This document shows positions 25,761 through 26,027 of a stretch of 64,000 nucleotides of DNA, in pieces. The notes beneath the pieces were generated by a model, which had not been told where the DNA came from, did not search any database, and saw only the letters and a program-made list of their open reading frames with translations. Position numbers and translations under genes: made by a program. This DNA is from Eledone cirrhosa. Taxonomy: Eukaryota. Positions within the stretch are counted from its first letter, which is position 1; each line of letters begins with the position of its first letter. The DNA lies in assembly GCA_964016885.1 (NCBI GenBank), contig OZ024762.1:18724001-18788000 (forward strand), read 5' to 3'.

Positions 25761-25853
25761 AGACATATCCGAGGATCTTGCGGTTTGTCAGGTTTGATCA
25801 TTGCATCGATCGTGCCTCGAGCTGGTCGCCAGAGAAACGATTGTAATATGTCT
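25761..25853 (+). ncRNA. Variant type I hammerhead (CCGAGGA core, 58-nt stem II)
   Basis: AGACATAT-CCGAGGA-TCTTGCG...CGCCAGA-GAAA-CGATTG-TA-ATATGTCT then AATAAA. Perfect 8-bp stem I. Confidence 0.7.
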
Positions 25854-25975
25854 AATAAATCTTATTCGTCGCACCACTGATTCTCCGTTTCTTATGTGAT
25901 ATTATACTCTGCTCTGTAAGAGCATCGAGTGCTCAAACGGCATACCGCTTACGGACGCTTTAAGCATCCCACACC

Positions 25976-26027
<52 letters not shown>

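What the first reader, a model, noticed from the sequence alone, without database searches (positions are those of the whole stretch)
25761..25980. Best example of the variant: perfect 8-bp stem I with adjacent AATAAA
Seen: AGACATAT/ATATGTCT brackets CCGAGGA and GAAACGATTGTA in exact hammerhead register. AATAAA follows immediately, then ~120 nt to a (TA)n tract, the same order as at the end of the large PLE. Inference: solo end of an unidentified PLE family.
Basis: partly seen in the sequence, partly recalled or inferred. Interest (0 to 1): 0.7.

Follow-up and report, generated by a model that had tools for sequence, protein, structure and literature searches.

The report
Solo end of Hydra-clade Penelope element
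This is one of many short end-pieces of a known kind of jumping gene; it carries a predicted self-cutting RNA, and it belongs to a sub-lineage that kept spreading with a core change that likely weakens cutting.

Summary
The hammerhead-shaped motif is real (0 of 300 shuffled windows give one). It lies in a 247-bp repeat, 25734-25980, with 2,873 first-look candidates in the genome. Long copies link it to an RT plus C-terminal GIY-YIG ORF with the Hydra-clade motifs of Penelope-like elements (PLEs); unit about 4.9 kb.

The 'variant' is not the family state. Exact counts are 450 CTGAGGA against 73 CCGAGGA (control changes 4 and 7). The C4 form marks one sub-lineage that produced both short and ORF-bearing copies.

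Copies end at two fixed 3' sites (25906, 25980) in (TA)n, and 55 of 60 stop at one 5' zone. Nearly all span the uncut cleavage site. This fits copying from uncut RNA that starts in the terminal repeat. AATAAA is present, but no sampled copy ends in poly(A). Cleavage and expression are untested.

Verdict: a new member of a known kind. The scan has already noted Hydra-clade hammerheads, fixed 5' stops and twin hairpins on other DNA of this genome.

The parts
25734..25980 (+). Solo pLTR plus tail of a Hydra-clade Penelope-like element (247 bp)
   Evidence: copies 94-97% identical over this span; same segment at both ends of full-length RT/GIY-YIG units
25734..25760 (+). Shared 5' boundary zone, likely the RNA start (inferred from copy ends only)
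   Evidence: 21 of 30 5' ends at -4..+18; 55 of 60 at -9..+26
25761..25853 (+). Type I hammerhead motif: 8-bp stem I, CCGAGGA core, long imperfect stem II with a U.C mismatch at its fourth position, 2-bp stem III with self-complementary loop; predicted cut after 25845
25770..25770 (+). U4C core change, marker of one sub-lineage
   Evidence: 73 vs 450; controls 7 and 4; linkage
25783..25787 (+). Private damage in this copy: A>G at 25783 and a 4-nt deletion between 25786 and 25787
25854..25859 (+). AATAAA, conserved in the family, no evidence of use as a poly(A) signal
   Evidence: conserved; no poly(A)-ended copy among the flanks printed
25905..25931 (+). Bulged hairpin that begins at the short 3' end site (25906)
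   Evidence: -10.7 kcal/mol, z -2.34, 3 of 200 shuffles as good
25907..25980 (+). 74-nt tail between the two 3' end sites; in tandem copies it runs on into the 5' UTR, with the ATG 41 nt further
25979..26027 (.). (TA)n target tract, shared with a second PLE mini-insertion on its right

Best explanation
This is a short copy of the terminal repeat and tail of a Hydra-clade Penelope-like retrotransposon, inserted at a (TA)n tract and likely made when the element's reverse transcriptase started inside the RNA at the tail end and ran off the RNA's 5' end. Shown: multi-copy status, linkage to an RT/GIY-YIG ORF, Hydra motifs, two fixed 3' ends, one 5' boundary zone, (TA)n flanks, and U4C as a sub-lineage marker. 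Inferred: the transcript starts near 25734 in the upstream repeat of a partial tandem; the GIY-YIG domain nicks (TA)n; RT starts at 25980 or 25906 as shown in vitro for Poseidon_Ac; the template was uncut, because the copies span the cleavage site. The hammerhead is predicted to be a weak, dimer- or protein-dependent ribozyme; U4C likely weakens it further without having stopped spread.
For:: 2,873 candidates, 40 scored; partial tandems (L104, L105, L113, L065, L106, L103) in which this segment runs into the ORF start; unit about 4.9 kb; of 30 long loci, CxCx5C in 21, CxxCxxE in 23, E..N..CxH in 18; RW[RK] and DK[TPS]GN in 5 each (few copies reach that far 5'). These match the Hydra definition and Hydra-1_Obim by eye; 3' ends 35 of 60 at the short site and 21 of 60 at the long site; 28 of 34 two-armed records pair one long with one short end, none long-long or short-short (two insertions counted twice). 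5' ends: 21 of 30 (chosen only on sequence 3' of the cut site) and 55 of 60. 1 of 30 begins next to the cut site. C4 copies carry A32 in 29 of 30, T4 copies in 6 of 30; C4 occurs in long copies L033, L167, L173 and the ORF-bearing insertion L064/L146. Stem III pairs have probability 0.00-0.09 in monomers, but 15.1-16.1 is self-complementary over 8 bp (-5.8 kcal/mol). Internal RT starts, the tail and dispensable cleavage are shown in vitro in PMC11167929.
Against: The RNA start is inferred from DNA ends only. The motif folds no better than shuffles. The forced double hammerhead is 3-6 kcal/mol less stable than the free two-molecule fold. The first stem II pair is U-A or a C.A mismatch (122 and 32 of 164), not the G-C typical of PLE hammerheads. 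No change on both sides of any pair is common inside the family, so structure is supported by register and position, not by covariation. The window copy has no inverted arm and no (TA)n on its left. Samples are best-scoring or first-listed copies, not random draws. No intact ORF was seen in the copies fetched.
Confidence: 0.8

Rival explanations
1. The 247-bp piece is a self-standing non-autonomous element (SINE- or retrozyme-like) with its own short master, moved in trans by the PLE enzyme.
For: Most copies are short with a fixed 5' boundary. Animal retrozymes are proposed to derive from pLTRs.
Against: Short and long copies share subfamily markers, C4 included. The tail is the 5' UTR of the ORF-bearing unit. 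No head-to-tail arrays of this unit were seen in the loci fetched.
Confidence: 0.12
2. The fixed 5' boundary is an RT stop or template-switch site inside a longer RNA, not the RNA start.
For: 5' ends spread over about 30 nt and often join an inverted arm. Self-priming models for inverted junctions exist.
Against: Both arms, and copies without an inverted arm, stop in the same zone. No strong fold lies there. An ACATT initiator-like word sits at the boundary, as noted for a rotifer pLTR; this is weak evidence.
Confidence: 0.2
3. The hammerhead is a dead relic in the whole family, so U4C is simply neutral drift in a master copy.
For: Non-canonical first stem II pair, weak predicted folding, nearly all copies span the cut site.
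Against: All core positions other than 4 and 7 are kept in every subfamily majority. Three subfamily differences in stems (32, 43, 124) each change a mismatch or wobble into a Watson-Crick pair in the window's subfamily; the direction of change was not rooted.
Confidence: 0.3
4. C4 arises copy by copy (CpG gain or loss, RNA editing, RT error) and marks no lineage.
For: 4 of 52 C4 copies in the pooled set sit on other haplotypes. Two insertions have arms that differ at this site (L004, L009).
Against: 73 against 4 for a control T>C change and 7 for the CpG>CpA product. 29 of 30 versus 6 of 30 linkage to A32.
Confidence: 0.08

Closest known systems
Hydra clade of C-terminal EN+ PLEs, e.g. Hydra-1_Obim (Craig et al. 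2021, PMC8557442; passages, section 11, supplement parts 1-2 and a term search seen)
   Same: RT then GIY-YIG; RW[RK], DKT, CxCx5C linker, CxxC..E..N..CxH; (TA)n target; type I hammerhead near the 3' end; pLTR, inverted arm and one-sided tail.
   Different: Unit about 4.9 kb against 'generally <3 kb'. Stem II region 58-62 nt against roughly 10-25 nt in the Hydra rows of File S2. None of those rows has a CCGA core. Tail 74 nt against 30-40 nt given for PLEs. The hammerhead sequence differs from Hydra-1_Obim.
PLE hammerheads (Cervera and de la Pena 2014, PMC4209133; parts 1-2 of 4 read)
   Same: Type I motif in the pLTR, mostly found as single dispersed motifs, short palindromic stem III suited to dimers.
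   Different: No G10.1-C11.1 pair, longer stem I and much longer stem II; U4C sub-lineage.
Poseidon_Ac (Frangieh et al. 2024, PMC11167929; parts 1-2 of 4 read)
   Same: Two RT start sites that bracket the tail, AT-rich target, uncut RNA as the main template.
   Different: Different clade. Here the ORF starts 41 nt after the long end, so both ends lie in the 5' UTR, not inside the ORF. Nothing is tested in vitro here.
Natural U4C hammerhead variant of a viroid (cited in Perreault et al. 2011, PMC3088659; passages seen)
   Same: Same core change, reported to lower activity considerably in vitro yet to be tolerated in vivo.
   Different: Viroid RNA, not a retrotransposon.

Membership tests
EN+ Penelope-like element | Single ORF with RT and GIY-YIG endonuclease | tested here: met
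   (in broken copies, co-linear). Pfam GIY-YIG match is weak, E 0.01, below cut-off, and RT pieces had no Pfam RT match.
EN+ Penelope-like element | Partial tandems forming pLTRs, inverted 5'-truncated arm, one-sided tail | tested here: met
Hydra clade | C-terminal EN | tested here: met
Hydra clade | RWK-type motif and DKG changed to DKT | tested here: met
   RRMRWRAF and SDKTGN in translations; 5 of 30 loci each, most loci being 5'-truncated
Hydra clade | CxCX5C linker; CxxC and CxH around E and N; no CCHH | tested here: met
   21, 23 and 18 of 30 loci; no cysteine pair inside GxY-YIG by reading the translations
Hydra clade | (TA)n insertion | tested here: met
   All 30 3' flanks run into TA-rich microsatellite
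Hydra clade | Generally shorter than 3 kb | tested here: not met
   About 4.9 kb in L104; the paper gives this as a tendency, not a definition
Hydra clade | Position in an RT phylogeny | not tested
   No tree with reference PLE proteins was built
Naiad | N-terminal EN, CxC motif, no canonical hammerhead | tested here: not met
   EN is C-terminal
Type I hammerhead ribozyme | Core CUGANGA / GAAA / NUH in register with three stems | tested here: met
   Met for the family majority (61 of 80 T4; 450 vs 73). The window copy has U4C.
Type I hammerhead ribozyme | Compensatory changes supporting the stems | tested here: inconclusive
   Only one-sided changes among 164 copies
Type I hammerhead ribozyme | Self-cleavage at the predicted site | not testable with these tools
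   Needs an in vitro assay or raw RNA reads
Non-LTR retrozyme | Head-to-tail arrays of a non-coding hammerhead unit | tested here: not met
   None seen in the loci; not searched genome-wide

The most novel reading that the evidence does not exclude
A Penelope-like lineage kept retrotransposing in an animal genome after its master acquired a damaging U4C change in the ribozyme core, and most of the family's copies are run-off cDNAs from uncut RNA that map the transcription start and both RT start sites. Together these would be genomic evidence that hammerhead cleavage is dispensable for PLE spread in vivo, with a natural U4/C4 pair ready for assay.
Probability: 0.45. Interest if true: 0.5.

Novelty: new member of a known kind. 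Interest (0 to 1): 0.27.

Why it matters
Hammerheads in PLE ends, Hydra elements in octopods, tails and (TA)n targeting are all published, so the motif itself is ordinary. The useful part is the natural experiment. The role of PLE hammerheads is open (stated in PMC8557442), and only in vitro work shows cleavage to be dispensable (PMC11167929). A sub-lineage that spread with U4C, and a copy population that spans the cut site and stops at one 5' zone, make that question testable in one family.

Tried and rejected
Rfam scan: swamped by microsatellite matches, no hammerhead among the 150 rows shown of 429. Repeat finder on the whole window: only microsatellites. Naiad or Nematis/Neptune assignment: rejected on domain order and linker motif. 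CCGA as ancestral state with CpG decay to CTGA: rejected, CCAA 7 against 450 CTGA. Copy-by-copy RNA editing as source of C4: rejected by linkage. AATAAA as the signal setting insertion ends: no poly(A)-ended copy. Lower divergence in stem I and core than in flanks was not used as evidence, because the samples were selected on those sequences. A sister family was fetched to look for covariation; no related long-stem-II hammerhead came out of it. The window's other CCGA motif (56404) gave only itself in an exact search, so its family state is unknown. The second hairpin beyond the long end appears in 4 of 5 short folds at only -3.8 to -6.3 kcal/mol and not in two longer folds; one fold (L104) used wrong coordinates and is ignored. 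Lunse et al. on PLE hammerhead variants is not held, so a U4C PLE variant may be in print there. An earlier count said 23 of 30; the correct count is 21 of 30.

Full report
Observation. All elements described are at the stated places: 8-bp stem I, CCGAGGA, a 58-nt stem II region, GAAAC-GATT-GTA, predicted cut after 25845, AATAAA at 25854-25859 and (TA)n from about 25980. With one descriptor the window has 5 such motifs (2 with stem I of 8 bp or more); 300 of 300 shuffled windows have none. The motif does not fold better than shuffles (z -0.55), and Rfam showed no hammerhead in the 150 rows visible of 429.

What it belongs to. A search of the window's genome (3.0 Gb) gave 2,873 candidates, 40 scored, at 94-97% identity over 25734-25980. 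Four of the 30 loci shared further upstream sequence. Walking 5' led through about 1.75 kb of UTR into a GIY-YIG domain and then an RT. In six partial tandems the same end segment runs on into the ORF start, with the ATG 41 nt after the position equal to 25980. The unit is about 4.9 kb (L104). The proteins carry RRMRWRAF, SDKTGN, KDH, YRDD, CxCx5C and CxxC..E..N..CxH (tallies over 30 loci). These are the features that define the Hydra clade in PMC8557442, which lists an Octopus member. No tree was built. The large PLE of the window is a different family of the same type (44% identity over 135 aa).

The 'variant'. In 80 aligned copies the core is CTGAGGA in 61 and CCGAGGA in 17. Exact genome counts in the same 17-base context are 450 and 73, against 4 for a control T>C change and 7 for the CpG>CpA product. 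C4 travels with A32 in 29 of 30 copies, T4 in 6 of 30, so C4 marks a sub-lineage; 4 of 52 C4 copies in the pooled set sit on other haplotypes. It occurs in long copies and in an ORF-bearing two-armed insertion. U4C is reported to lower activity considerably in vitro yet to be tolerated in a viroid (PMC3088659). One search for U4C with hammerhead and self-cleavage found only that paper; the paper on PLE hammerhead variants by Lunse et al. could not be read. Long stem II regions (50-94 nt) and CCGA cores also occur in unrelated hammerhead families in the fetched loci, so neither is unique here. The window copy also has a private A>G change and a 4-nt deletion in stem II.

Fold. In subfamily majorities stem I forms with probability 0.78-0.94, the base of stem II 0.37-0.70 and stem III 0.00-0.09. 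The stem III segment is self-complementary over 8 bp, as in dimer-forming PLE hammerheads (PMC4209133). The forced double hammerhead is more stable than two monomers but 3-6 kcal/mol less stable than the free two-strand fold. The first stem II pair is U-A or C.A rather than G-C, a U.C mismatch sits at the fourth position in 150 of 164 copies, and no two-sided change is common.

Ends. 3' ends fall at two sites equal to 25906 and 25980: 35 and 21 of 60, usually followed by (TA)n. Two-armed records pair one long with one short end in 28 of 34, with no long-long or short-short pair (two insertions counted twice). This is the PLE tail, which in Poseidon_Ac lies between two internal RT start sites (PMC11167929). 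A bulged hairpin begins at the short site (z -2.34); a second, weak one lies just past the long site in tandem copies (4 of 5). 5' ends cluster near 25734: 21 of 30 in a sample chosen only on sequence 3' of the cut site (2 run further, 7 stop earlier, 1 of these next to the cut site) and 55 of 60 in samples chosen on the core. No copy in these samples ends in poly(A) after AATAAA.

Mechanism. Shown: copy number, ORF linkage, motifs, ends, target, linkage of C4. Inferred: transcription starts near 25734 in the upstream repeat of a tandem; the enzyme nicks (TA)n, starts copying at one of the two sites near the RNA's 5' end and runs off, giving 173- or 247-bp solo copies; starting at the same sites in the downstream repeat gives long copies. 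Because copies span the cut site, the template was mostly uncut, which agrees with a C4 master staying mobile. Rivals are an independent short master, an internal RT stop, a dead ribozyme in the whole family, and copy-wise origin of C4.

Context. The left flank is a decayed LINE on the minus strand (translation; two weak RVT_1 matches, E 0.19 and 0.06). The (TA)n tract is shared with a truncated two-armed insertion of another hammerhead family at about 26028-26189.

Papers seen. PMC8557442: passages, section 11, supplement parts 1-2 of 59 and a term search. PMC4209133 and PMC11167929: parts 1-2 of 4. bioRxiv 10.64898/2026.07.22.740005: part 1 of 5. PMC3088659, PMC6765202, PMC3846280, PMC13282606: passages (the last, an Octopus vulgaris repeat annotation, has no mention of hammerheads or Hydra in its main text). 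Unseen supplements and repeat libraries may already hold this family. Hammerhead numbering and the LINE motif reading are from my own knowledge. Earlier scan notes on this genome report Hydra-clade hammerheads, fixed 5' stops, twin hairpins and a stem II mismatch on other DNA; none matched this sequence.

Verdict. A real, ordinary PLE end, now assigned to a long Hydra-type family; modest added value from the U4C sub-lineage and the end map. Interest 0.27.

Noticed in passing
window 26028-26189: Near-perfect 35-bp palindrome plus tail: a two-armed insertion of another hammerhead family, cut 3' of its ribozyme, 98-100% identical copies (541 candidates); 4 of 7 other loci show a CTGATGA hammerhead upstream. 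It has the same bulged ACTC/GAGT hairpin at its short end.
   Followed up: yes
window 600-5730: Large fold-back Hydra-type PLE: GIY-YIG end at 3710-4324 (+) and 1908-2510 (-), hammerheads at 5506-5562 (+) and 649-703 (-) with a C.C mismatch in stem II; arms end at a short and a long site.
   Followed up: partly
window 37253-37308 (+), 56404-56477 (+), 61981-62050 (-): Three more hammerhead motifs of other families; 56404 also has a CCGA core and was single in an exact 23-base search.
   Followed up: partly
window 15030-20270 (+): Apparently intact non-LTR element with a 592-aa first ORF and an 1153-aa endonuclease/RT ORF; a 3' fragment of it lies at about 13750-14473.
   Followed up: no
window 25200-25733 (-): Decayed LINE with endonuclease-like and RT-like pieces only about 150 bp apart; left flank of the finding.
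   Followed up: partly
L034, L036, L039, L044: A 32-bp tandem array that starts inside the 3' UTR of this PLE family in four loci.
   Followed up: no
L031:6928-7467: C-terminal ORF piece of a sister Hydra-type family (609 candidates) just upstream of a truncated copy of this family, same orientation.
   Followed up: partly
L032 (about 3.0-4.5 kb upstream of the UTR anchor): A different PLE with RT and GIY-YIG, with CxxC inside the GIY-YIG region, as a fold-back next to a copy of this family.
   Followed up: no
L003, L029 3' flanks: Long GC-rich palindromes directly after the (TA)n at the element's 3' end.
   Followed up: no
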